A stretch of 64,000 nt of DNA from a phage. The DNA lies in sequence record PX068456.1; one strand, given 5' to 3'. Made by a program: the position numbers and the translations under genes. This document shows, one piece after another, positions 3,032 to 52,596 of the stretch. Below the pieces are notes generated by a model. That model did no database searches. It was not told the origin of the DNA and saw only the letters and a list, made by a program, of their open reading frames with translations. Numbering within the stretch: the first letter of the stretch is position 1; the number at the start of each line of letters is the position of its first letter.

Positions 3032-3301
3032 CTATTTTTTCAAGCTCGACCAGTCAAAACACGGCGGGATCTCGTTAAAACTTGTGCCCTGTAAAGCACA
3101 TAATTTTTTAGCAATAGCCGCCGTGACCTGGCGCTGTACGCGCGGATCTGCTACTGATTGGAGAAAGTAGGCGGCTTTATATGTGATCATGCTTTCGCCT
3201 GTTTCCTTGCTAACATGATGCACTATTTTAGCCTTATCATCTTTTACCAGGGTGTAACCGGATTCGATGGCCTTGATTGCAACGTCCAATGATATTTTCA
3301 T
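3032..3301 (-). CDS. hypothetical small protein (89 aa)
   Basis: ORF track; AAGAGATAAATC RBS; hairpin GGCGGGGAATACTCCCCCGCC at 3321-3341 in leader. Confidence 0.5.
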   Translation of the reverse strand: MKISLDVAIKAIESGYTLVKDDKAKIVHHVSKETGESMITYKAAYFLQSVADPRVQRQVTAAIAKKLCALQGTSFNEIPPCFDWSSLKK

Positions 3302-3320
3302 GATTTATCTCTTTATTGAT

Positions 3321-3341
3321 GGCGGGGAATACTCCCCCGCC
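3321..3341 (-). promoter_or_regulatory. 5'UTR stem-loop (GGCGGGGAATACTCCCCCGCC)
   Basis: perfect inverted repeat directly upstream of RBS of 3032..3301. Confidence 0.45.
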
Positions 3342-3348
3342 TTATTAA

Positions 3349-3519
3349 TTACTCTTCATCGTCGCCGTTATAGTATTCAATGCCGTTTTCATCGGTTACG
3401 GTAATATTAACGCCACCGATAGCAACACGATCACGGGCAAACGTCATGGCTTCATTTAAATCTTCAGACCAAAAAATATTGTGACCTTTGCGCGATACGT
3501 AAAACATAGTTGGGATCAT
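3349..3519 (-). CDS. hypothetical small protein (56 aa)
   Basis: ORF track frame; internal ATG 3519 after GAGAAGAGAAAC RBS; cassette upstream. Confidence 0.4.
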   Translation of the reverse strand: MIPTMFYVSRKGHNIFWSEDLNEAMTFARDRVAIGGVNITVTDENGIEYYNGDDEE

Positions 3520-3541
3520 GATTTGTTTCTCTTCTGCTGTG

Positions 3542-3599
3542 AGCGGCACTATTGCCGCCCTATGTGATAAACTTTACTACGTTGTTTGCCTACTGTCAA
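3542..3599 (-). promoter_or_regulatory. promoter + stem-loop cassette (TTGACA-17-TAAAGT, hairpin AGCGGCActattGCCGC)
   Basis: minus-strand reading of 3542-3599. Confidence 0.5.
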
Positions 3600-6213: not shown

Positions 6214-6272
6214 GGCGGGAAACCATTTCCCGCCGTTGTTGTTACTTTACTTATAAATGATGCTACTGTCAA
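6214..6272 (-). promoter_or_regulatory. promoter + stem-loop cassette (TTGACA-17-TAAAGT, hairpin GGCGGGAAACCATTTCCCGCC)
   Basis: minus-strand reading. Confidence 0.55.
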
Positions 6273-6279
6273 GCGGATA

Positions 6280-6450
6280 TTATTTATTTTTTAACGTTAA
6301 TGTTCCCAGCTTATCAGCGTGACGCAGACCAGGAAAGATCCATTTTCCTGATTCATCTTTCACCGGGGCTTTAAGCGTAGCGCCCAGGTTGGCGGCATTA
6401 ACTTTACGTGCAACGTTGCGAGCGGCTTCACGGGTGGCGAAAGTGATCAT
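6280..6450 (-). CDS. hypothetical small protein (56 aa)
   Basis: hand-translated; ATG 6450 after GAGAAGAGGAAACATC RBS; cassette 6474-6534 upstream; below ORF-track cutoff. Confidence 0.4.
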   Translation of the reverse strand: MITFATREAARNVARKVNAANLGATLKAPVKDESGKWIFPGLRHADKLGTLTLKNK

Positions 6451-44430: not shown

Positions 44431-46203
44431 GTGTCTTATGTTGTAAATAAATATGGGTATAACATTGACCTAAGTCAAGAAGGACATACTGGGTGTCCTC
44501 GTTGTATGAAAGGAGGGCGTGATCGCTCACAAAACAATTTGATGGTATATGGCTTAGATGCCGATGAAGACCATCGAGGCGCACATTGTTTTTCTTGTGG
44601 CTTTACTATCCCTGATCAAAAATGGTTAAATGCACACGGCGAAGAAATTGAAGAGGAGGATATCTTGGGTAGTGAGTTTAATCCAGAAGTACATGATAAG
44701 CTAAAAGCCAGCACTGGAACTAATCCAAAAGGTTATCGCGGTATTCGTGAAGATATCTCTAAACCTTTCGGTGTACGCTATATGTACGATGAAGCTACTG
44801 GCGAAGTAATTTCAACATTATACCCTACAACTAAAGATTACAATATTGCTGGGTATAAACAACGTATCGATCCAAAAGATTTTTCACATCCTATTGGTGA
44901 AACAGGAAAGGATTGTGATCTTTTTGGGGAGTTTAAATATCGTAACCACAGCGGTACTATTCTAATCGTTGGTGGTGAACACGATATGCTGGCTGCAACA
45001 CAGATGCTAAAAGATTATAACAAGGGCGGTAAATATCCTGTTCCTGCTGTAGTATCTGGTACTTGTGGCGAAACATCTCTGCATAAGCAGCTTCAACATC
45101 GTTATAAATTTTTAGATCAATTTAAAAAGATTGTTCTGTGTATGGATAATGATGAAGCTGGACGTGCAGCAGTTGAGAAATGTGTTAAAATCTTACCACG
45201 TAATAAAGTTTATGTGATGGAACTAACGGATGTTAAAGATCCTAACCAGGCACTAGTAGAAGGAAAAATTGATCACTTTCTTGATCGTTTTTTCAAAGCT
45301 AAACTGTACACACCTGCTGGTGTTTATGCTTCTAACGTACTGTATGAAGCAGCCTTGGAATGCCTGGAAGCTAAAATGATCACCCTTCCTCCATTCATGC
45401 GTGTTGCTTCTAATATGTTAGGTGGAGGCTTGGTAGAAGAAGAAATTACTGTTATACTTGCAAAAACAAGTATCGGTAAAACACTGTTGGTTAACGAGAT
45501 TACAAAGCACATTATTCTTGCACACCCAGAACATACTCTTGGTATTTTATCTTTGGAGGCAACGTATAAGAAGTATTCTCGTAACTTACTGTCTTCATTC
45601 TTGCACATCCCTCTTCACCGTAAAACAAAAGAAGAGAAGGAAAAGATTTTAAAAGATAATGAAGAAAAGATTCGTGATTTTTACGAACGAGAAGATGGAA
45701 CACCACGTTTCTATGTTTGTGATGATCGTGGAGCTAACGTAGATGTGATTAAAGAGAAGGTTCTGGAAATGATTATTTATTTCGGAGTAACCATTCTTGT
45801 TATCGACCCTTATTCTGACTTGCTTTCTGGTATGGACGTGTCACAACAAGAGGAACTTGCGACGTGGCTCAAACGCATTATGAAAGAGTACGCAATTACC
45901 ATTGTTGTAATTTCACACGTTAAAAAGTCTTCTAACAATAGTAATGAACATATTGTAGAAGATGATGCAATGGGTAGTAGCTTCCTTGCTAAAGGTGCTG
46001 GTATCACAATTGCGCTGGAGCGTGATAAACAAGCTGAAGATCCTATGGAACGTAACCGCACATATTGCTACATCCTAAAGAACCGTGAGTTCTCAGAGAC
46101 TGGTGCAGCAGGTAGTTTCTTCTATGAGATTAAAACAGCGACACTTCACGATTACGATCAATACACAAGTAACCCAGAGAATATTCCTGATGGTTCTTAT
46201 TAA
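44431..46203 (+). CDS. bifunctional DNA primase/helicase (T7 gp4-like), GTG start
   Basis: N-terminal Zn finger CPRC...CFSC, TOPRIM-like IVGGEHDM / CMDNDEAGR, C-terminal P-loop and Walker B VLVIDPYSD. Confidence 0.7.
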   Translation: MSYVVNKYGYNIDLSQEGHTGCPRCMKGGRDRSQNNLMVYGLDADEDHRGAHCFSCGFTIPDQKWLNAHGEEIEEEDILGSEFNPEVHDKLKASTGTNPKGYRGIREDISKPFGVRYMYDEATGEVISTLYPTTKDYNIAGYKQRIDPKDFSHPIGETGKDCDLFGEFKYRNHSGTILIVGGEHDMLAATQMLKDYNKGGKYPVPAVVSGTCGETSLHKQLQHRYKFLDQFKKIVLCMDNDEAGRAAVEKCVKILPRNKVYVMELTDVKDPNQALVEGKIDHFLDRFFKAKLYTPAGVYASNVLYEAALECLEAKMITLPPFMRVASNMLGGGLVEEEITVILAKTSIGKTLLVNEITKHIILAHPEHTLGILSLEATYKKYSRNLLSSFLHIPLHRKTKEEKEKILKDNEEKIRDFYEREDGTPRFYVCDDRGANVDVIKEKVLEMIIYFGVTILVIDPYSDLLSGMDVSQQEELATWLKRIMKEYAITIVVISHVKKSSNNSNEHIVEDDAMGSSFLAKGAGITIALERDKQAEDPMERNRTYCYILKNREFSETGAAGSFFYEIKTATLHDYDQYTSNPENIPDGSY

Positions 46204-46699: not shown

Positions 46700-49279
46700 A
46701 TGGGAGCTTTTACTTTCGACATTGAAAGTAACAACTTGCTTAATGACGAAAGTGTAGATTACTTGGCAAGTCCATATCGTTTAAAAGATAGTTTTGCAAT
46801 GCACTGTATTGTGTGTGAAAGTCATGATACTGGAGAGATTATTGCTTTCCATGATGGTGATAAATATCTTTTCGATGGTCGTCCGTATATTGAGACTGAC
46901 GGAAAGTATGAATACCGACTGGAGGAATATGAGCATTTAGAATATACCCATTTCCCTCTTAAAGATTTTCCTGATTTTGTAAATGGAACAGGTAAATTTA
47001 AAGGTAATTCAAACTATAAAATTACCAAAGTAGTTGGACACAACATCATTAACTTCGACTTACTGGCAATTAAATTATTTTTTAAACTCAACTACAGTAT
47101 TAAGTACAATACTTGGGGTAATAGTAACATTGAAATTTGTGATACTATGATCTTAAGTAAGACACTAAACCCTGATCGCTTCGGTGGTCATAGTCTGGCA
47201 GAGTTATCTAAGAAAGCTGGAGGGGATGTTAAAATTGATTTTAGAAAAAACATCCCTGAAACTGAAAGATTTAGAACATTTGCAGCAGATATGCTGTATT
47301 ACTGTATTTACGATAACAAAGCTAACACCGCAGTGTTCCGTTATTTGATGGAAGAGTGGGGTGATTATAATAAGTGGTCTGAACCATTTAACTTAGAACA
47401 ACGTGTAGCTGATATTATTACACGTCAAGAGCACCGTGGCTTTGCTTTCAATATGAAACAAGCAGAAGATAATATTCGTGATCTGGATGCTCGAATGGAA
47501 GCATGTCGTTTAGAGGCAGAACCTGTACTACCTCCTAAACCTGCTACTAAAGGTTATTTGAAATCATTCATTCCACCTAAACTACAGTTTAAAAAGAATG
47601 GTGAACCTTCAAGTAACATGATAAAGTTTGCAGAGAAACATTCTGGTGAACTTGTACAAAAAGAAGATGGTTGGTGGTTATTTGCATTAGGTAAAGAGTT
47701 TAAACTACCTATTCCAGCAGAAGAACCTATTTGTGATCCTACAGTACCTGCTACTTTAGACGACACTACACATATTAAAAATTGGTTAGTTGGTTTAGGT
47801 TGGAGTCCATCTGAATATAAAGATAAAGATATCACTCTTAAATCTGGCACTAAGATTAAGAAAGATGAAGCACAAATGGAGAAAGCTATTCGTGACTATG
47901 TTGATCAAACATTAGCATCTAACTTCTGCCAGGATAGATGTGATCATCTGGAGTGCACACCAGAAACTTTGGAATGGAAACTAAGAGATCGTATTGCTAA
48001 AGCTAAAGGTCGTGGTGTTAAAGTGCTTACTAACCCTTCCTTTACAAAAGGGCAAGAGAAGGATATTTGTCCTAACTTGGAAGCACTAGGTGAAAAGTTT
48101 CCTTACGCTACGCAGATTGTGCAGTATCTTACGTATAAACATCGTAGAAACTCTATTCTAGGTGGTGGTGCTGATTGGGAAGAGGATGAAGAGGATTACG
48201 ATAAAGGTTATCTGGCGGCAGTAAGGGCTGATGGTCGTATACCAACTCCTGCTGCAACGTGTGATGCAGCTACGTCTCGTATGAAACATAGGTTAGTAGC
48301 AAATATTCCACGTGTAACATCTCTGTACGGATATGAAATGCGTAACTTATTTGGTGTAGAAGTTCCAAAATACTTCCAAATTGGTTATGACTTTGATTCT
48401 CTTGAGGCAAAGATAGAATCACACTACTGTTGGCGGTACGAGCAGGAACCACACGAATATTGTAATGCTCTATTGTTGGAAAAACCTAATGATGTTCATA
48501 CAATGATGGCTCGACGTATTTCTGACACTATTGGTCGTAAGTTTGAACGAAGCCCTGCTAAATCTGTTAAGTATGGTATTACTTATGGTGCTCAAGCTGC
48601 AAAAGTAGCAAAAACTATTGGTAGTGATATGTATACAGGACAGCTTGTATACGATGCTTTCTGGGAAGCTGCAAAACCTCTTGCACTTCTTAAAGAACGT
48701 CTGCATGATTTTTGGGTTAAAACAGGTAAGAAATACATTCTTGGTATTGATGGTAGGAAAGTACCTACACGATCTGCACACGCAATACTTAACTCTCTGT
48801 TCCAGAGTGGTGGTGTTATTTGTGCAAAAAGAGCAATGGTTATCTACGATGATCTTATCGAAGAAGAAGGATTAGCTGTTGACTTTTTTGTTGATGACTG
48901 GAAAAATAAGTCATTCGTTCAACAAATGATTGCATATCACGATGAAGCACAGCTTGAAGTAACTCGTGATCTCGTGCATTTTAAATGGTTCTCTAAAGAA
49001 TCTTTAGGTTGGACTCAAGTTGATGATCCAGAAGAACAAAAGAAAATTGATAAAGAATGTTTGGATAAAGTTAACGCCTGGAAAGAAGAGGAAGAGAAAC
49101 GTACTGGCAAGATTTGGGCTAACGTACATGAATCTCCGAAAGGTGGTTGGTTTACAGCCTATAGTCGTGCTGGAGAGTTAGCATCTATCGCTGTTAATAA
49201 AGCTGGTGAGTATTACAATCTTAATGTACCTCTCACTGCTGGTTACGATGTTGGTAACTCATGGGCCAGTTGTCACTGA
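46700..49279 (+). CDS. family A DNA polymerase with 3'-5' exonuclease domain
   Basis: Exo I FDIES, Exo II HNIINFD; motif B-like R..AKSVKYGITYGA; motif C HDE. Confidence 0.8.
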   Translation: MGAFTFDIESNNLLNDESVDYLASPYRLKDSFAMHCIVCESHDTGEIIAFHDGDKYLFDGRPYIETDGKYEYRLEEYEHLEYTHFPLKDFPDFVNGTGKFKGNSNYKITKVVGHNIINFDLLAIKLFFKLNYSIKYNTWGNSNIEICDTMILSKTLNPDRFGGHSLAELSKKAGGDVKIDFRKNIPETERFRTFAADMLYYCIYDNKANTAVFRYLMEEWGDYNKWSEPFNLEQRVADIITRQEHRGFAFNMKQAEDNIRDLDARMEACRLEAEPVLPPKPATKGYLKSFIPPKLQFKKNGEPSSNMIKFAEKHSGELVQKEDGWWLFALGKEFKLPIPAEEPICDPTVPATLDDTTHIKNWLVGLGWSPSEYKDKDITLKSGTKIKKDEAQMEKAIRDYVDQTLASNFCQDRCDHLECTPETLEWKLRDRIAKAKGRGVKVLTNPSFTKGQEKDICPNLEALGEKFPYATQIVQYLTYKHRRNSILGGGADWEEDEEDYDKGYLAAVRADGRIPTPAATCDAATSRMKHRLVANIPRVTSLYGYEMRNLFGVEVPKYFQIGYDFDSLEAKIESHYCWRYEQEPHEYCNALLLEKPNDVHTMMARRISDTIGRKFERSPAKSVKYGITYGAQAAKVAKTIGSDMYTGQLVYDAFWEAAKPLALLKERLHDFWVKTGKKYILGIDGRKVPTRSAHAILNSLFQSGGVICAKRAMVIYDDLIEEEGLAVDFFVDDWKNKSFVQQMIAYHDEAQLEVTRDLVHFKWFSKESLGWTQVDDPEEQKKIDKECLDKVNAWKEEEEKRTGKIWANVHESPKGGWFTAYSRAGELASIAVNKAGEYYNLNVPLTAGYDVGNSWASCH

Positions 49280-49416
49280 CATCCCTTTGATTTTAAAGGA
49301 GTTTTTATGTGGGACAATCTATTATTGCCAAGGTTGTTCCACACTTTTAAACCATTTCATAATTAGATGTTTGAACATCTAGAATAACGCAAAGACCATA
49401 AGAGATAGGAGAAAAT

Positions 49417-50010
49417 ATGAATATTGAAGATCAAAAAGTACGCGCTTTAGAAGTATTACGTATGTGCCAACTGGTAGATCCGTTTGCAATTGTAGCTGGC
49501 GGCGCTGTACGTGATTGGCGATTAGAAACACCTGCGCAAGATATTGACATTTACTTGCGTATGCCTAACCACAATACAACCGTACTGGTAGAGAAATTTT
49601 TGATGTTGGGTGTTGGTGCACGTAATGTTAAACAACTTACTAAGCAAACAGAACACACTTATGCCGAACTACCACATTTGAAATGGGTATTTGAAGCATA
49701 CTATAAAGATCTTAAGTTTAACTTTATGATCATGGAAGAGGGTGTACGCAGTGAAATCGTATGGAACTTTGACGTAGCTATTTGCCTGTGTTACTGGGAT
49801 GGTCAAAATTATGTATATCATCCAGACTTTGACTTTGCATTGAAGACTAATATTTGCACTATTAATCACCGATACACAGGTAAAGAAGCACACGTCCGTA
49901 AAATGGCAGAACGTTTCCCTATGTTCCGCTTTGTAAAAGACGTTTTCATCCCCAAAGAACCAGAAGTACGTACACTGGATTCGTTTAACAACGAAGAATT
50001 TAAGATTTAA
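49417..50010 (+). CDS. hypothetical protein (197 aa)
   Basis: ORF track; RBS GATAGGAGAAAAT. Confidence 0.5.
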   Translation: MNIEDQKVRALEVLRMCQLVDPFAIVAGGAVRDWRLETPAQDIDIYLRMPNHNTTVLVEKFLMLGVGARNVKQLTKQTEHTYAELPHLKWVFEAYYKDLKFNFMIMEEGVRSEIVWNFDVAICLCYWDGQNYVYHPDFDFALKTNICTINHRYTGKEAHVRKMAERFPMFRFVKDVFIPKEPEVRTLDSFNNEEFKI

Positions 50011-50033
50011 GTGTTGACAAACCTTACAATTAT
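50004..50033 (+). promoter_or_regulatory. sigma70-like promoter TTGACA-18-TATTAT
   Basis: hexamers read directly upstream of 50054 gene. Confidence 0.45.
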
Positions 50034-50053
50034 GTGTTATTATGAGGACTTGA

Positions 50054-50452
50054 ATGACAGACAATCGTTCTAAAATCTTAGTCGAGACGTTCTATAGTAG
50101 AGAAACTAATCGTCTTGAACTAACTAAAAAAGATGTTGAACCTCAAGATAATACCTTTTTTATTCAAATACTATGTCTCTTTGGTGGATACAACCGTTTA
50201 ACAGTGCGGGTAGAAGACAAAGAGATATCTGAAACCACTATCACAAAACGTGATCTAATGCTACTACAGGACACAATACGAGATGTTTTGGACAATCCTG
50301 GAAAAGCAAAAGTAATTAACCTTGGTGGAGAAAAGATACAAATTCTCCATTTTGAAAGTGGTGAAATAGGATTTGGTATTGGTCTTGGTAAATACCTGTT
50401 GGAAGAAACTGACGCTACTCTTTTACGAGAGTTTTGTGTTAAAGTAATGTAA
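50054..50452 (+). CDS. hypothetical protein (132 aa)
   Basis: ORF track. Confidence 0.5.
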   Translation: MTDNRSKILVETFYSRETNRLELTKKDVEPQDNTFFIQILCLFGGYNRLTVRVEDKEISETTITKRDLMLLQDTIRDVLDNPGKAKVINLGGEKIQILHFESGEIGFGIGLGKYLLEETDATLLREFCVKVM

Positions 50453-50468
50453 TTATAGAGGAGAATTT

Positions 50469-51416
50469 ATGCCAGTAATTAATTCTGAAATCGACCGCCG
50501 TACTAAAAAAGAAGCATTCTGGGCTGAAGGTATTGTCGAATATGTCAAACTAGATAAGTTTGATGAAATGAAAGTCTCTTATATTAAGGTTGCAGGTCAG
50601 CCAGATAAGAAAATTGAATCAACTCACAAAGCATCTCTGCTTATTAAAGAGAAAGGTGCTGGTGCTGATGATAAAGGTGTTTGGGTTAGCCTAGGTGAAG
50701 TTAAACTGCACCCAGAACATGAAAATCTGCAAGTTAAAGATGGTGATAAGTGGGTTACTATCGAAAAAGGTGTAGAACTAACTATGGATGTTAAACCTTC
50801 TGAATGGAATGGCAAAACATACTACAACTCCTCTAAAGGTAAAATCACTATTCTTTCAACAGAAGGTGTTCAGCAAGCGCAATCCTCCTCAAAAGGTGGA
50901 AATAAGCCATCTAATAACGACGGTAGCAAGCCTAACTACAAAAAACGTGATACCGTAGGGATTGAAACAGGACACGCTGTAAACGGCGCTCTGGAGCTTC
51001 TACGTGCTGGTGTGAAAGGTGATGCTTTCGACTTGGCTGGTGTGGTACAATCTGCAACTGTTACTCTGAAAGCTGAAATTGCTAAAGATCGTGGCGTTGA
51101 TGTAACTGACTATGATCTTGGTGCTTCAGTTGGACACGCAATTCTTAACGCTTGTCGTGATCATACAGGTAAAACTGTAACGGCAGAAGAGATTATTGAA
51201 GCTGCTCGTGAAGTTCTTGCTTTGTCTGATAAAGTAGCTGCTGCTATCCGTGGAATGTCTACCCCAGTACAAGAAGTTAAGAAAGAAACTAAAAAAGTAG
51301 AGAAGAAAGAGCCAGCACCGAAAGAACCAGAACCTGTTGTTCAAGATTTCGATGATGATATCCCATTTGCTCCTATTGGTTTGCAATATGGTCGAAACTT
51401 CCTGCACTGTTTCTAA
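50469..51416 (+). CDS. putative single-stranded DNA-binding protein (SSB-like acidic tip DFDDDIPF near C-terminus)
   Basis: DFDDDIPF is identical to the E. coli SSB C-terminal tip; location within replication module. Confidence 0.45.
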   Translation: MPVINSEIDRRTKKEAFWAEGIVEYVKLDKFDEMKVSYIKVAGQPDKKIESTHKASLLIKEKGAGADDKGVWVSLGEVKLHPEHENLQVKDGDKWVTIEKGVELTMDVKPSEWNGKTYYNSSKGKITILSTEGVQQAQSSSKGGNKPSNNDGSKPNYKKRDTVGIETGHAVNGALELLRAGVKGDAFDLAGVVQSATVTLKAEIAKDRGVDVTDYDLGASVGHAILNACRDHTGKTVTAEEIIEAAREVLALSDKVAAAIRGMSTPVQEVKKETKKVEKKEPAPKEPEPVVQDFDDDIPFAPIGLQYGRNFLHCF

Positions 51417-51438
51417 TAATTAAATATTGTGTGAATAT

Positions 51439-51464
51439 AAGGAGCCTAACGGCTCCTTTTCTTT
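51439..51464 (+). terminator. intrinsic terminator AAGGAGCCtaacGGCTCCTTTTCTTT
   Basis: GC stem plus T-run. Confidence 0.55.
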
Positions 51465-51476
51465 GAAGGAGATATA

Positions 51477-52208
51477 ATGAGCGAATTTGTAAACAACACC
51501 GCATTAAACTACCTGCAAACCCTCGAAAGCAATAGTGTAGATTTGATTCTTACTGACCCACCATATGCTATTTCTCGTGACACAAATTTTCAATCTGGAG
51601 AGCCTACTGGAAAAGATACGGATAGATTCCGTGTATCTTACAACTTTGGTGACTGGGATGTTGTAGATATTCCTTACTTTAGAGAAGTATTCAAAGAAGC
51701 CTATAGGGTGCTTAGAAAAGGTGGCACTTGCATAGTTTGGTATGATATCTGGAAGATCCAGGAGCTACGTGAAATCCTTGAACCGCTTGGTTTTCGTATG
51801 TTCCGTACTATTGAATGGATTAAAACAAACCCTGTACCCATCAACAGTGGTGTTAACTACCTTAGTAACGCTAAAGAGATGGCTATTGTTTGTGTTAAAG
51901 GTTCGAAGCCAACCTTCAATGCTTCCTACCATAAGGGTGTGTTTGAGTATCCTATCTATCAAGGAGCAGATCGTTTTCATCCAACACAAAAACACTTGAC
52001 TTTGTTTTGTGACCTTATTAATATACATACCAACGAAGGAGATGTAGTCTTAGACTTCTTCTCTGGAAGTGCAACAACACAAATTGCGGCACTTTTAACA
52101 GGTAGAGAATACTTAGGCTGTGAAGCCGATGTAAATATTTTTAAGCAAGCGGAGGAACGACTAAATGAGTACACTGAACAGCAAAATCACCCTGAAAGCA
52201 CTGATTAA
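51477..52208 (+). CDS. DNA N6-adenine (or N4-cytosine) methyltransferase, beta-class
   Basis: motif IV DPPY near N-terminus, motif I DFFSGSATT near C-terminus. Confidence 0.7.
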   Translation: MSEFVNNTALNYLQTLESNSVDLILTDPPYAISRDTNFQSGEPTGKDTDRFRVSYNFGDWDVVDIPYFREVFKEAYRVLRKGGTCIVWYDIWKIQELREILEPLGFRMFRTIEWIKTNPVPINSGVNYLSNAKEMAIVCVKGSKPTFNASYHKGVFEYPIYQGADRFHPTQKHLTLFCDLINIHTNEGDVVLDFFSGSATTQIAALLTGREYLGCEADVNIFKQAEERLNEYTEQQNHPESTD

Positions 52209-52596
52209 CAACGGTATGAATTTGGACTCTGGTCTGTCTCCAAAGATTTCTATGGCACGACTGGAACAAGTTACTGGTCTTCGTCAAGTAAGTAATGGCG
52301 GTAAGATTATTCGTGATGACGCTGTACCTTTTAATAAATTTCAGATTGAACGTCACTACGATCCTGTAACTGCAAGTCTTACTGGTGTAACTTTCTCAGG
52401 TTATCGTACTGCTGGATACCAACGTAAGGTTGTAGCTGAACGTATTAAGAGTCGCAAACAGAAAATTGCAACATTGAAGAAACTGGTAGAGAAAGATGTT
52501 TCAGAACTTCTTAACCTGTATGAAACTCTTGAGACAAAAGGTGAAAATCATAAACTCTTTTCTAAAGAAGATGTAAGCGTAATTTTCACTGATTAA
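52165..52596 (+). CDS. hypothetical protein (143 aa)
   Basis: ORF track; RBS GGAGGAACGACTAA. Confidence 0.5.
   Translation: MSTLNSKITLKALINNGMNLDSGLSPKISMARLEQVTGLRQVSNGGKIIRDDAVPFNKFQIERHYDPVTASLTGVTFSGYRTAGYQRKVVAERIKSRKQKIATLKKLVEKDVSELLNLYETLETKGENHKLFSKEDVSVIFTD

What the first reader, a model, noticed from the sequence alone, without database searches (positions are those of the whole stretch)
50469..51416. SSB-like protein with an internal copy of the host SSB tip motif
The sequence DFDDDIPF, identical to the C-terminal tip of E. coli SSB that recruits partner proteins, occurs 15 residues before the C-terminus rather than at the very end (the protein ends ...DFDDDIPFAPIGLQYGRNFLHCF). 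The tip normally needs a free C-terminal Phe, so the extension could modulate or mask partner binding, or it could reflect a frameshift or read-through in the source assembly.
Basis: partly seen in the sequence, partly recalled or inferred. Interest (0 to 1): 0.45.

Follow-up and report, generated by a model that had tools for sequence, protein, structure and literature searches.

The report
Phage SSB-like protein with capped tip
A phi92-type E. coli phage encodes an SSB-like protein whose copy of the host SSB docking tip (DFDDDIPF) is followed by a conserved 15-residue cap; the same cap ends hundreds of other phage SSBs and some phage helicases, so it is a real, unstudied peptide module and not a sequencing error.

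Summary
ORF 50469-51416 (+) encodes 315 aa ending ...DFDDDIPF-APIGLQYGRNFLHCF. The window is a phi92-like myovirus (Justusliebigvirus), and 55 GenBank phages carry the same gene with the same ending.

The extension is not a frameshift or read-through. The unit "tip + AP[IV]GL + 9-11 residues ending hydrophobic" closes proteins in more than 140 retrieved loci. These include PF00436 SSBs of epsilon34, HK75 and mEp235, gp2.5-like SSBs, and DnaB-type primase/helicases of rV5-like phages. It always stops 14-16 codons after the Phe and shows coding-type constraint.

Within this family 22 of 101 members carry the cap, scattered across the tree. One homing-endonuclease family repeatedly sits right after the cap, which suggests a route for its spread.

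Most likely the cap is a portable docking peptide that changes which partner the tip binds. The partner is unknown. I found no description of the cap in the searchable literature.

The parts
50014..50043 (+). Sigma-70-like promoter match (TTGACA-18-TATTAT, 11 of 12, with TG) upstream of the 132-aa ORF and the SSB-like gene. This may be the operon start.
   Evidence: This is a consensus match only; the number of matches in the region is not above the shuffle expectation.
50054..50452 (+). 132-aa ORF of unknown function (phrog_16560; equivalent to phi92 gp157), immediately upstream and possibly co-transcribed.
   Evidence: It has no detectable similarity to the small ORF upstream of the rV5/Bas52 homologue.
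50457..50463 (+). Ribosome-binding site AGAGGAG, 5 nt before the ATG.
   Evidence: sequence. The phi92 annotation marks AGGAG at the same place.
50469..50858 (+). Residues 1-130: all-beta N-terminal domain, predicted OB fold.
50859..50948 (+). Residues 131-160: low-complexity disordered linker (QQAQSSSKGGNKPSNNDGSKPNYKKR).
   Evidence: pLDDT is 46-65. rV5-type relatives have an extra roughly 100-aa domain inserted here.
50949..51254 (+). Residues 161-262: four-helix domain specific to this family, probably for oligomerisation.
   Evidence: pLDDT is 91-98 with helices 163-179, 186-208, 215-230 and 239-260. It holds the most conserved columns (G164, G168, H169, T197, G218, G222, A228). The Bas52_0087 DRT10-escape substitutions D252V and Y351C align to D161 and A257 here (preprint 10.64898/2026.04.29.721553).
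51255..51344 (+). Residues 263-292: K/E/P-rich intrinsically disordered linker.
   Evidence: pLDDT is 54-65. Length and sequence vary among homologues.
51345..51368 (+). Residues 293-300: DFDDDIPF, identical to the E. coli SSB C-terminal tip but internal here.
   Evidence: P299 and F300 are invariant, and D293, D296 and D297 are conserved in at least 90% of 45 homologues.
51369..51413 (+). Residues 301-315: the cap APIGLQYGRNFLHCF, a conserved portable extension ending in a hydrophobic C-terminus.
51414..51419 (+). Tandem stop codons TAA TAA.
51439..51468 (+). Terminator-like hairpin (AAGGAGCC-TAAC-GGCTCCTT) followed by a T-rich run, before the methyltransferase gene at 51477.

Best explanation
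[quoted passage not shown] It belongs to the phi92 gp156 / PVP-SE1 gp39 / rV5 ORF214 / Bas52_0087 family (phrog_4477). Its layout is an OB fold, a four-helix (probably oligomerisation) domain, a disordered linker and a C-terminal docking module. That module has two parts: the host-type acidic tip DFDDDIPF, and a 15-residue cap (AP-I-G-L, a short spacer, then a hydrophobic end ...F-L-H-C-F-COOH).

Shown here: the cap is translated, is constrained at the peptide level, always ends the protein 14-16 residues after the Phe, and is exchanged horizontally among unrelated phage SSB families and primase/helicases.

Inferred: the cap buries the Phe carboxylate that canonical SSB-Ct pockets use and adds a second hydrophobic C-terminal anchor. 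The capped tail would therefore bind a different, or a more specific, partner than host SSB does. That partner is most likely a host protein of the Enterobacterales-Vibrionales-Alteromonadales clade. This is analogous to the way the acidic Phe-terminated tails of T7 gp2.5 and gp4 share one docking site. The partner itself is not identified. SbcB/ExoI and PriC are speculative candidates.
For: The gene is real and conserved. 343 phage records hold homologues and 55 are at least 95% identical with the cap. It matches phrog_4477 at E 2.6e-101.

The context is a replication module: primase/helicase, family-A polymerase, nucleotidyltransferase-like gene and methylase. No PF00436-type SSB is present elsewhere in the window.

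The homologue Bas52_0087 is required for DRT10 activation and is predicted to be SSB-like.

The cap is a module. It ends annotated SSBs of epsilon34, g341c, HK75, mEp235, mEpX2, CP-1639 and many Vibrio phages. At least 120 IMG/VR loci and 22 species genomes contain DDDIPFAP[IV]GL, every one with a stop 14-16 codons after the Phe, and these give 59 distinct cap peptides. The carriers fall into at least 8 BLAST-unrelated families, including gp2.5-like SSBs and DnaB-type primase/helicases.

The constraint is at the peptide level. Window versus PVP-SE1 shows 7 synonymous and 2 conservative codon changes in 15 codons. Codon-position entropy over the last 7 codons is 1.63/1.10/1.81.

The cap flavour tracks the host clade across carrier families: P[YF]P[RS]H.I[YH].. 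in Enterobacterales and Q[YH]PALL.C[MI] in marine gammaproteobacteria. No single phage gene accompanies it within 5 kb.

The tail is predicted to be disordered, as expected for a linear motif.

Known SSB-Ct pockets in DnaG, ExoI, RecO, chi and PriA use a salt bridge to the terminal Phe carboxylate (PMC5872125). A phage SSB tail can recruit a specific partner, as HK620 SSB does with Sak4 (PMC5928155).
Against: No binding partner was identified and no interaction could be modelled or measured. The cap is dispensable for the basic function: close relatives at 73-80% identity end in a free DFDDDIPF, 79 of 101 family members lack the cap, and at least 15 state changes are needed on the tree. The link between cap flavour and host clade could simply reflect gene exchange among phages that share hosts. 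The taxonomic range was measured with a pattern that requires DDDIPF, so it is partly circular. ssDNA binding by this family has never been shown directly; the Bas52_0087 assignment is also a prediction.
Confidence: 0.55

Rival explanations
1. Insulation or masking only. The cap has no partner of its own. Its role is to bury the Phe carboxylate so that the phage SSB does not recruit host SSB-interacting nucleases and helicases (ExoI, RecJ, RecQ, Ung and others), or so that it escapes sensors that read a free tip. The acidic stretch is kept for regulating DNA binding in cis.
For: Canonical pockets need the terminal carboxylate (PMC5872125). Capped and free forms alternate among close relatives, as expected for a trait under fluctuating selection. 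Phage SSBs are frequent defence triggers.
Against: Any few added residues would mask the tip. Masking alone does not explain the conserved AP[IV]GL, the fixed length of 14-16 residues, or the hydrophobic [LI]-[HYN]-x-[ILMF] C-terminus kept across 59 variants and at least 8 carrier families. DRT10 still restricts Stephanstirmvirinae, the subfamily of the window phage, according to the preprint, although the trigger in those phages was not mapped.
Confidence: 0.15
2. Pro-tip or degron. The hydrophobic C-terminal tail is recognised by a cytoplasmic protease of the ClpXP, Lon or FtsH type. The protease either destroys the protein, which would limit SSB or helicase levels, or trims the cap to release a mature IPF-COOH tip.
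For: The C-terminus is non-polar and often preceded by a basic residue (..RHAIHAI..RNFLHCF). From my own knowledge, this loosely recalls C-terminal ClpX recognition motifs such as ssrA LAA and MuA RRKKAI. The position at the extreme C-terminus is strictly kept.
Against: There is no sequence match to a defined degron and no conserved cleavage motif of a known protease. The conserved AP[IV]GL next to the Phe is not explained. Nothing here tests protein stability.
Confidence: 0.1
3. Selfish footprint. The cap is brought in by a homing-endonuclease cassette that targets tip-coding DNA. It persists after the endonuclease gene is lost because it destroys the cleavage site, with no function for the protein.
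For: One endonuclease family (phrog_2340/1035) sits within about 10 nt of the cap's stop codon in five unrelated carrier genes, with its ATG inside the cap codons. rV5 (cap plus endonuclease) and Bas52 (neither) are otherwise near-identical. The distribution in the family is patchy.
Against: An intact endonuclease gene is present in only 1 of about 142 sampled loci, and two more carry degenerate copies. None is in the window. A neutral scar would drift in length and content, but the cap keeps its length and hydrophobic pattern through many synonymous changes. Homing endonucleases typically exploit sites that are already conserved, which fits a functional cap equally well.
Confidence: 0.07
4. 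Assembly artefact: a frameshift or stop-codon read-through specific to this sequence.
For: None beyond the unusual position of the tip.
Against: The ending is identical in 55 independent phage genomes. The same module occurs in more than 140 other loci.
Confidence: 0.01

Closest known systems
E. coli SSB and its C-terminal tip (SSB-Ct, ...PMDFDDDIPF)
   Same: It has an OB-fold DNA-binding domain, an intrinsically disordered linker and an identical 8-residue acidic tip.
   Different: There is no PF00436 match. It has an extra four-helix domain. The tip is internal, 15 residues from the C-terminus, so the Phe carboxylate used by known partner pockets (PMC5872125) is not available.
Bas52_0087 of phage RudolfGeigy (Vequintavirus), the DRT10 trigger (bioRxiv 10.64898/2026.04.29.721553)
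   Same: It is a homologue: 41% identity over the OB domain and 32% over the helical domain plus tail. It occupies the same position downstream of the DNA polymerase gene. It was predicted to be SSB-like with an FDDDIPF motif.
   Different: Bas52_0087 is 408 aa with an inserted second domain and ends in a free ...SFDDDIPF. The window protein is the short form and is capped. Whether the window protein triggers DRT10 is unknown.
Capped canonical phage SSBs (epsilon34 gp35, g341c gp30, HK75, mEp235, mEpX2, CP-1639 and Vibrio phage SSBs)
   Same: They have the same tip plus cap, for example mEp235 ...MDFDDDIPFAPVTLPFPRHAIHAI.
   Different: Their DNA-binding domain is the ordinary PF00436 OB fold. 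They sit in recombination modules of temperate phages next to Erf, exonuclease and anti-RecBCD genes, not in a lytic-phage replisome module.
T7 gp2.5 and gp4 acidic C-terminal tails (own knowledge of the T7 replisome literature)
   Same: A phage SSB and a phage primase/helicase carry the same kind of acidic Phe-containing tail. In rV5-like Klebsiella, Salmonella and Cronobacter phages both proteins carry DDDxPF with or without the cap.
   Different: In T7 the Phe is the last residue and the partner (gp5/thioredoxin) is known. Here the Phe is capped, the partner is unknown, and the window's own primase/helicase has no such tail.
HK620 SSB (HkaK) and Sak4 (PMC5928155)
   Same: A phage SSB unrelated to bacterial SSB has C-terminal residues that recruit a specific partner on ssDNA.
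   Different: The HK620 tail is NDYPPF-COOH with a free Phe and no cap. Members of the phrog_743 SSB family (whether this is the HK620 family was not tested) do carry the cap ...DDDIPFAPIGLPFPSHSIYAL in other prophages.

Membership tests
Bacterial SSB family (Pfam PF00436) | Sequence match to the SSB OB-domain profile | tested here: not met
   Pfam gives 0 families at E<=1. An HMM built from 95 capped phage PF00436 SSBs finds nothing in the window at E<=10.
Bacterial SSB family (Pfam PF00436) | OB-fold DNA-binding domain | tested here: met
Bacterial SSB family (Pfam PF00436) | Disordered linker ending in an acidic tip whose last residue is a free Phe | tested here: not met
   The linker and DFDDDIPF are present, but 15 residues follow the Phe.
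Bacterial SSB family (Pfam PF00436) | Binds ssDNA; homotetramer | not testable with these tools
   No biochemical data exist for this family. Oligomerisation of Bas52_0087 is only inferred from a model in the preprint.
phi92 gp156 / rV5 ORF214 / Bas52_0087 family (phrog_4477) | Profile match over the whole protein | tested here: met
   phrog_4477 matches at E 2.6e-101. 100 homologues were found. Identity to phi92 gp156 is 96.8%.
phi92 gp156 / rV5 ORF214 / Bas52_0087 family (phrog_4477) | OB domain plus conserved helical domain (G164, G168, H169, T197, G218, G222, A228) plus linker plus DDDIPF | tested here: met
   Alignment A1 and the model.
phi92 gp156 / rV5 ORF214 / Bas52_0087 family (phrog_4477) | Location downstream of the family-A DNA polymerase in the replication module | tested here: met
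   Seen in the window, phi92, Bas52 and the P0006 locus.
Capped SSB-tip module (defined here) | D-D-D-[IVT]-P-F followed by A-P-[IV]-G-L | tested here: met
   The window has DDDIPF-APIGL, the pattern used.
Capped SSB-tip module (defined here) | Protein ends 14-16 residues after the Phe with [LIAF]-[IL]-[HYN]-[CVAM]-[ILMF]-COOH | tested here: met
   The window ends F-L-H-C-F, 15 residues after the Phe. The consensus comes from 77 distinct DNAs.
T7 gp2.5-like SSB (phrog_112) | Profile match | tested here: not met
   It is not among the PHROG hits for the window protein. A gp2.5-like carrier of the cap exists elsewhere (L125).
Tip-associated homing endonuclease cassette (phrog_2340/1035) | Zinc-finger HNH/endonuclease VII gene abutting the cap's stop codon | tested here: not met
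   The motif is absent from all six frames of the window. The 60 nt after the stop hold a terminator-like hairpin and the next gene's RBS.

The most novel reading that the evidence does not exclude
The capped tip (DDDIPF plus AP[IV]GL plus a hydrophobic C-terminus) is a previously unrecognised, horizontally mobile interaction motif. Phages of Enterobacterales, Vibrionales and Alteromonadales graft it onto any ssDNA-binding protein or replicative helicase. It engages a clade-specific host genome-maintenance factor (for example SbcB/ExoI or PriC) in a way that does not need the free Phe carboxylate, so it out-competes or subverts the host SSB interactome. A dedicated homing endonuclease spreads it between phage genomes.
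Probability: 0.3. Interest if true: 0.75.

Novelty: new variant of a known kind. Interest (0 to 1): 0.55.

Why it matters
The C-terminal tip of SSB is the hub through which more than a dozen bacterial replication, repair and recombination proteins find ssDNA. The accepted rule is that the last Phe must be free. A conserved cap on that tip is present in hundreds of phage SSBs, including those of well-known phages (epsilon34, HK75, rV5, PVP-SE1, phi92), and in some phage helicases. This implies either a second binding mode or a deliberate way to opt out of, or hijack part of, the host SSB network. Phage SSBs are also recurrent triggers of defence systems (Retron-Eco8, Hna, AbpAB, DRT9, DRT10), and a homologue of this very protein triggers DRT10 in connection with SbcB. 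Capped and uncapped natural variants therefore offer a ready-made experimental handle. The endonuclease association suggests how short interaction motifs can be moved between unrelated genes.

Tried and rejected
- **Pfam scan of the protein:** no hit.
- **Full-text searches for the cap strings** (DDDIPFAP, IPFAPI/V, APIGLQY, GLQYGR, LPFPRHA and others): no relevant paper. I could therefore not find a prior description, but the library holds only open-access papers and preprints.
- **Homing-endonuclease origin of the cap:** this looked attractive after comparing rV5 with Bas52. A survey of about 142 loci showed an intact endonuclease gene next to the cap in only one, with two degenerate copies. 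Codon statistics show peptide-level constraint. I kept it as a minor rival and as a way the cap may spread.
- **A universal neighbouring phage gene as candidate partner:** clustering all ORFs within about 5 kb found none. The commonest were a repressor-like gene (49/137 loci) and Erf (36/137).
- **Beta-clamp-binding motif (QL[SD]LF / QLxLxL):** rejected by inspection. The Gln is not conserved (P, M, A, S or E occur at that position) and the spacing does not fit.
- **Clean indel origin in this lineage:** the closest uncapped relative (P0006 locus) has a completely different downstream region, so nothing could be inferred.
- **Profile searches with the tail alone**: these returned mostly short SSB fragments. 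They added a few more carrier families but no new functional class.
- **Foldseek against viral models**: only uncharacterised family members.
- **Relation between the upstream 132-aa ORF and the ORF upstream of the rV5/Bas52 homologue:** none.
- **Programmed frameshift at CCA-TTT-GCT** that would give both forms: no slippery heptamer in frame (inspection).

Full report
**1. The observation**

The window has a single ATG ORF at 50469..51416 on the + strand (315 aa). It is preceded by AGAGGAG five bases upstream and followed by TAA TAA. The product ends ...PEPVVQ-DFDDDIPF-APIGLQYGRNFLHCF. The eight residues identical to the E. coli SSB tip are residues 293-300 (nt 51345-51368), and fifteen residues follow. 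A six-frame regex scan finds this tip and extension only once in the window.

**2. Where the window comes from**

A tblastn search against GenBank phages places the window in the phi92-like myoviruses (Stephanstirmvirinae, Justusliebigvirus). The protein is 100% identical in phage pEC-M2929-1AR.1 and 96.8% identical to phi92 gp156. In total 55 records are at least 95% identical over residues 1-315. That alone rules out a frameshift or read-through peculiar to this assembly.

**3. What the protein is**

Pfam finds nothing. PHROGs assigns it to phrog_4477, function unknown, at E 2.6e-101.

An AlphaFold2 model built on 45 homologues (mean pLDDT 83.5) has four parts:
- an all-beta domain (residues 1-130);
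- a disordered low-complexity stretch (131-160);
- a confident four-helix domain (163-260);
- a disordered tail (261-315).

The gene lies in a replication module:
- DnaB/Toprim primase/helicase, 44431-46203;
- family-A DNA polymerase, 46700-49279;
- nucleotidyltransferase-like gene, 49417-50010;
- a 132-aa ORF of unknown function;
- this gene;
- an N6/N4 DNA methyltransferase, 51477-52208.

A profile built from 95 phage PF00436 SSBs finds no other SSB in the window. A promoter-like site at 50014-50043 and a terminator-like hairpin at 51439-51458 bracket the 132-aa ORF and this gene.

A 2026 preprint (10.64898/2026.04.29.721553) reports that Bas52_0087 of the rV5-like phage RudolfGeigy is required to trigger the DRT10 reverse-transcriptase defence. 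The authors predict it to be SSB-like, with an FDDDIPF motif that they link to the host exonuclease SbcB. I located that gene (L005:4001-5227). It is a homologue of the window protein, with 41% identity over the OB domain and 32% over the helical domain and tail. It has an extra inserted domain. The two escape substitutions, D252V and Y351C, align to D161 (conserved in at least 90% of homologues) and A257, at the start of the window protein's helical domain and in its last helix.

"SSB-like" is thus well supported by prediction and context. Direct ssDNA binding has not been shown for any member of the family.

**4. The extension is a conserved, portable module**

Among 100 homologues, most end exactly at ...DFDDDIPF, but about a fifth continue with a similar 14-17-residue extension. 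On a neighbour-joining tree of 101 family members, 22 are capped. They are scattered, and at least 15 gains or losses are needed to explain the pattern. Identical caps occur in distant members: APIGLQYGRNFLHCF appears in the phi92 clade and in P0032, which is 63% identical overall.

The cap is not limited to this family. Short-query tblastn searches find it at the end of:
- annotated canonical SSBs of epsilon34, g341c, HK75, mEp235, mEpX2, CP-1639, ECP1 and many Vibrio phages;
- PVP-SE1 gp39 and rV5 ORF214;
- a DnaB-type primase/helicase of Klebsiella phage P8734, which ends ...GPDDDTPFAPIGLQYAKHAIYVI.

About 35 rV5-like Klebsiella, Salmonella and Cronobacter phages have such a helicase tail. 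Some of these helicases are capped and some end at a free DDDTPF.

In every case the reading frame stops 14-16 codons after the Phe, giving 59 distinct cap peptides. The consensus is AP[IV]GL, four or five variable residues (often aromatic plus Pro or Gly), then [LAF]-[IL]-[HYN]-[CVAM]-[ILM]-COOH.

With the last 55 residues removed, the carriers fall into at least eight BLAST-unrelated groups:
- PF00436 SSB (phrog_44);
- phrog_743 SSB;
- gp2.5-like (phrog_112);
- phrog_7364;
- phrog_2544;
- a Vibrio K443 type;
- phrog_4477 (this family);
- primase/helicase (phrog_239).

A profile of the tail alone, searched against 1.84 billion representative proteins, gave 57 hits at E<=0.001. The matches I inspected lie at or within a few residues of the C-terminus; the listed exceptions are two weak hits, P0138 and P0155. 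The search added further carrier types of 335-480 aa.

**5. The cap is selected as a peptide**

Between the window and PVP-SE1, whose proteins are about 36% identical, the 15 cap codons differ by seven synonymous and two conservative changes. Over 77 distinct cap DNAs, the entropy of the last seven codons is 1.63, 1.10 and 1.81 for codon positions 1, 2 and 3. The second-position entropy falls to about 0.6 at the two most hydrophobic sites. This is the signature of a translated, constrained sequence, not of a conserved DNA site or a decaying read-through.

**6. Clues to function**

The tail is predicted to be disordered, and it sits on unrelated carriers. Binding back onto its own protein is therefore unlikely, and an external partner is indicated.

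No single phage gene accompanies the cap within about 5 kb. The commonest neighbours are a repressor-like gene (49 of 137 loci) and Erf (36 of 137).

The cap flavour follows the host clade and not the carrier family. Enterobacterales prophages have ...P[YF]P[RS]H[AS]I[YH]x[ILV] on both PF00436 and phrog_743 SSBs. Alteromonadales, Vibrionales and Aeromonadales have ...Q[YH]PALLxC[MI]. All 22 genome hits but one MAG are from these gammaproteobacterial orders, although the search pattern itself requires DDDIPF.

Known SSB-Ct pockets in DnaG, ExoI, RecO, chi and PriA share a salt bridge to the carboxylate of the terminal Phe (PMC5872125). A capped tip cannot offer that carboxylate. The tail of the HK620 SSB shows that a phage SSB tail can be tuned to one partner, Sak4 (PMC5928155).

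The presence of the same tail on the SSB-like protein and on the primase/helicase of some phages recalls T7, where gp2.5 and gp4 share an acidic Phe-terminated tail that docks on one site (my own knowledge).

My best reading is that the cap converts the generic host-type tip into a two-part docking peptide with altered partner specificity, and that the partner is probably a host protein. I put this at about 0.55. SbcB/ExoI and PriC are candidates only by taxonomic range, and in the case of SbcB by the DRT10 preprint. Nothing here tests them.

**7. Rivals**

- **Masking only (0.15).** This does not explain the conserved sequence, length and hydrophobic end.
- **Degron or removable pro-tip (0.10).** This is compatible with the non-polar C-terminus but has no specific support.
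- **Neutral footprint of a homing endonuclease (0.07).** This is contradicted by the codon evidence and by the rarity of the endonuclease gene.
- **Artefact (0.01).** Refuted.

**8. A side finding that bears on how the cap spreads**

One endonuclease family (phrog_2340/phrog_1035, with an N-terminal CxxCG...FYKH...NKCKEC zinc finger) lies within about 10 nt of the cap's stop codon in five unrelated carrier genes:
- rV5 ORF214;
- the mEp554 SSB;
- a gp2.5-like SSB (L125);
- the primase/helicases of Salmonella phage KE23 and Cronobacter phage GAP31.

Its ATG lies inside the cap codons or just after the cap's stop codon, within the Y-G, Y-A or H-A codons where the genes overlap. rV5 carries both the cap and the endonuclease gene. 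Bas52 carries neither, yet is otherwise almost identical, with raised divergence just around the tip codons. This is what co-conversion during homing would produce.

Only one of about 142 sampled loci has an intact copy, and two have degenerate ones. The window has none. The endonuclease therefore looks like a parasite of an already conserved site, and a plausible vehicle for moving the cap. It does not look like the reason the cap exists.

**9. Novelty and verdict**

That this family is SSB-like with a host-type tip has been noted for Bas52_0087, which has a free tip. I found no mention of the capped form or of its motif strings in the searchable literature, which covers only open-access papers and preprints.

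I rate this as a new variant of a known kind, namely an SSB C-terminal interaction tail. It is of moderate to good interest because it contradicts the "free Phe" rule on a large scale and is directly testable with peptides and phage mutants.

Noticed in passing
L006:3744-4367 (rV5 ORF213); L007:~3059-3589 (mEp554_24); L125:~4327; L152:1607-2059 (KE23); L153:1616-2113 (GAP31): One HNH/'endonuclease VII' family (phrog_2340/1035, with a zinc-finger N-terminus) is inserted within about 10 nt of the cap's stop codon in five unrelated carrier genes, often overlapping the cap codons. rV5 (cap plus endonuclease) and Bas52 (neither) differ by this one insertion. This suggests homing into tip/cap-coding DNA with co-conversion of the cap.
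   Followed up: partly
L002:1018-3081 (Klebsiella phage P8734) and about 35 other records; window 44431-46203: Primase/helicases (phrog_239) of rV5-like Klebsiella, Salmonella and Cronobacter phages end in an SSB-like DDDTPF tip. It is either free (KPP-1, KB57) or capped (P8734, Seu621, KE23, GAP31). The homologous primase/helicase in the window has no such tail and ends ...NIPDGSY.
   Followed up: partly
window 49280-49416; L150:12353-12940; L004:7497-10811: Phage pEC-M2929-1AR.1, whose SSB-like protein is identical, has an extra 195-aa gene between the polymerase and the nucleotidyltransferase-like gene. The window lacks this gene. The phi92 polymerase gene is annotated as 3315 nt against 2580 nt here. 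Both look like variable, possibly mobile, insertions around the polymerase gene.
   Followed up: no
GenBank MG065656, MG065689, MG065690, MG065645 and others: Twenty-one records named 'Campylobacter phage', with host given as C. jejuni, hold homologues of this gene. The ones listed are 98-100% identical to E. coli phi92-like phages or match rV5-like phages. The host labels look doubtful.
   Followed up: no
L132:5713-5744 and 6261-6292; L114: Rheinheimera loci carry a second, orphan copy of the tip plus cap on a 55-aa ORF about 550 nt downstream of the full SSB gene. This looks like a duplicated 3' end.
   Followed up: no
P0115 (108 aa): A 108-aa protein with an unrelated N-terminus ends in ...DDDFPFDEDIPFAPIGLQYGRNFLHCF, which is the window's exact cap. 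It is another sign that the tail moves between genes.
   Followed up: no
window 52165-52208: The methyltransferase gene (51477-52208) and the next ORF (52165-52596, phrog_20244, unknown function) overlap by 44 nt in different frames.
   Followed up: no
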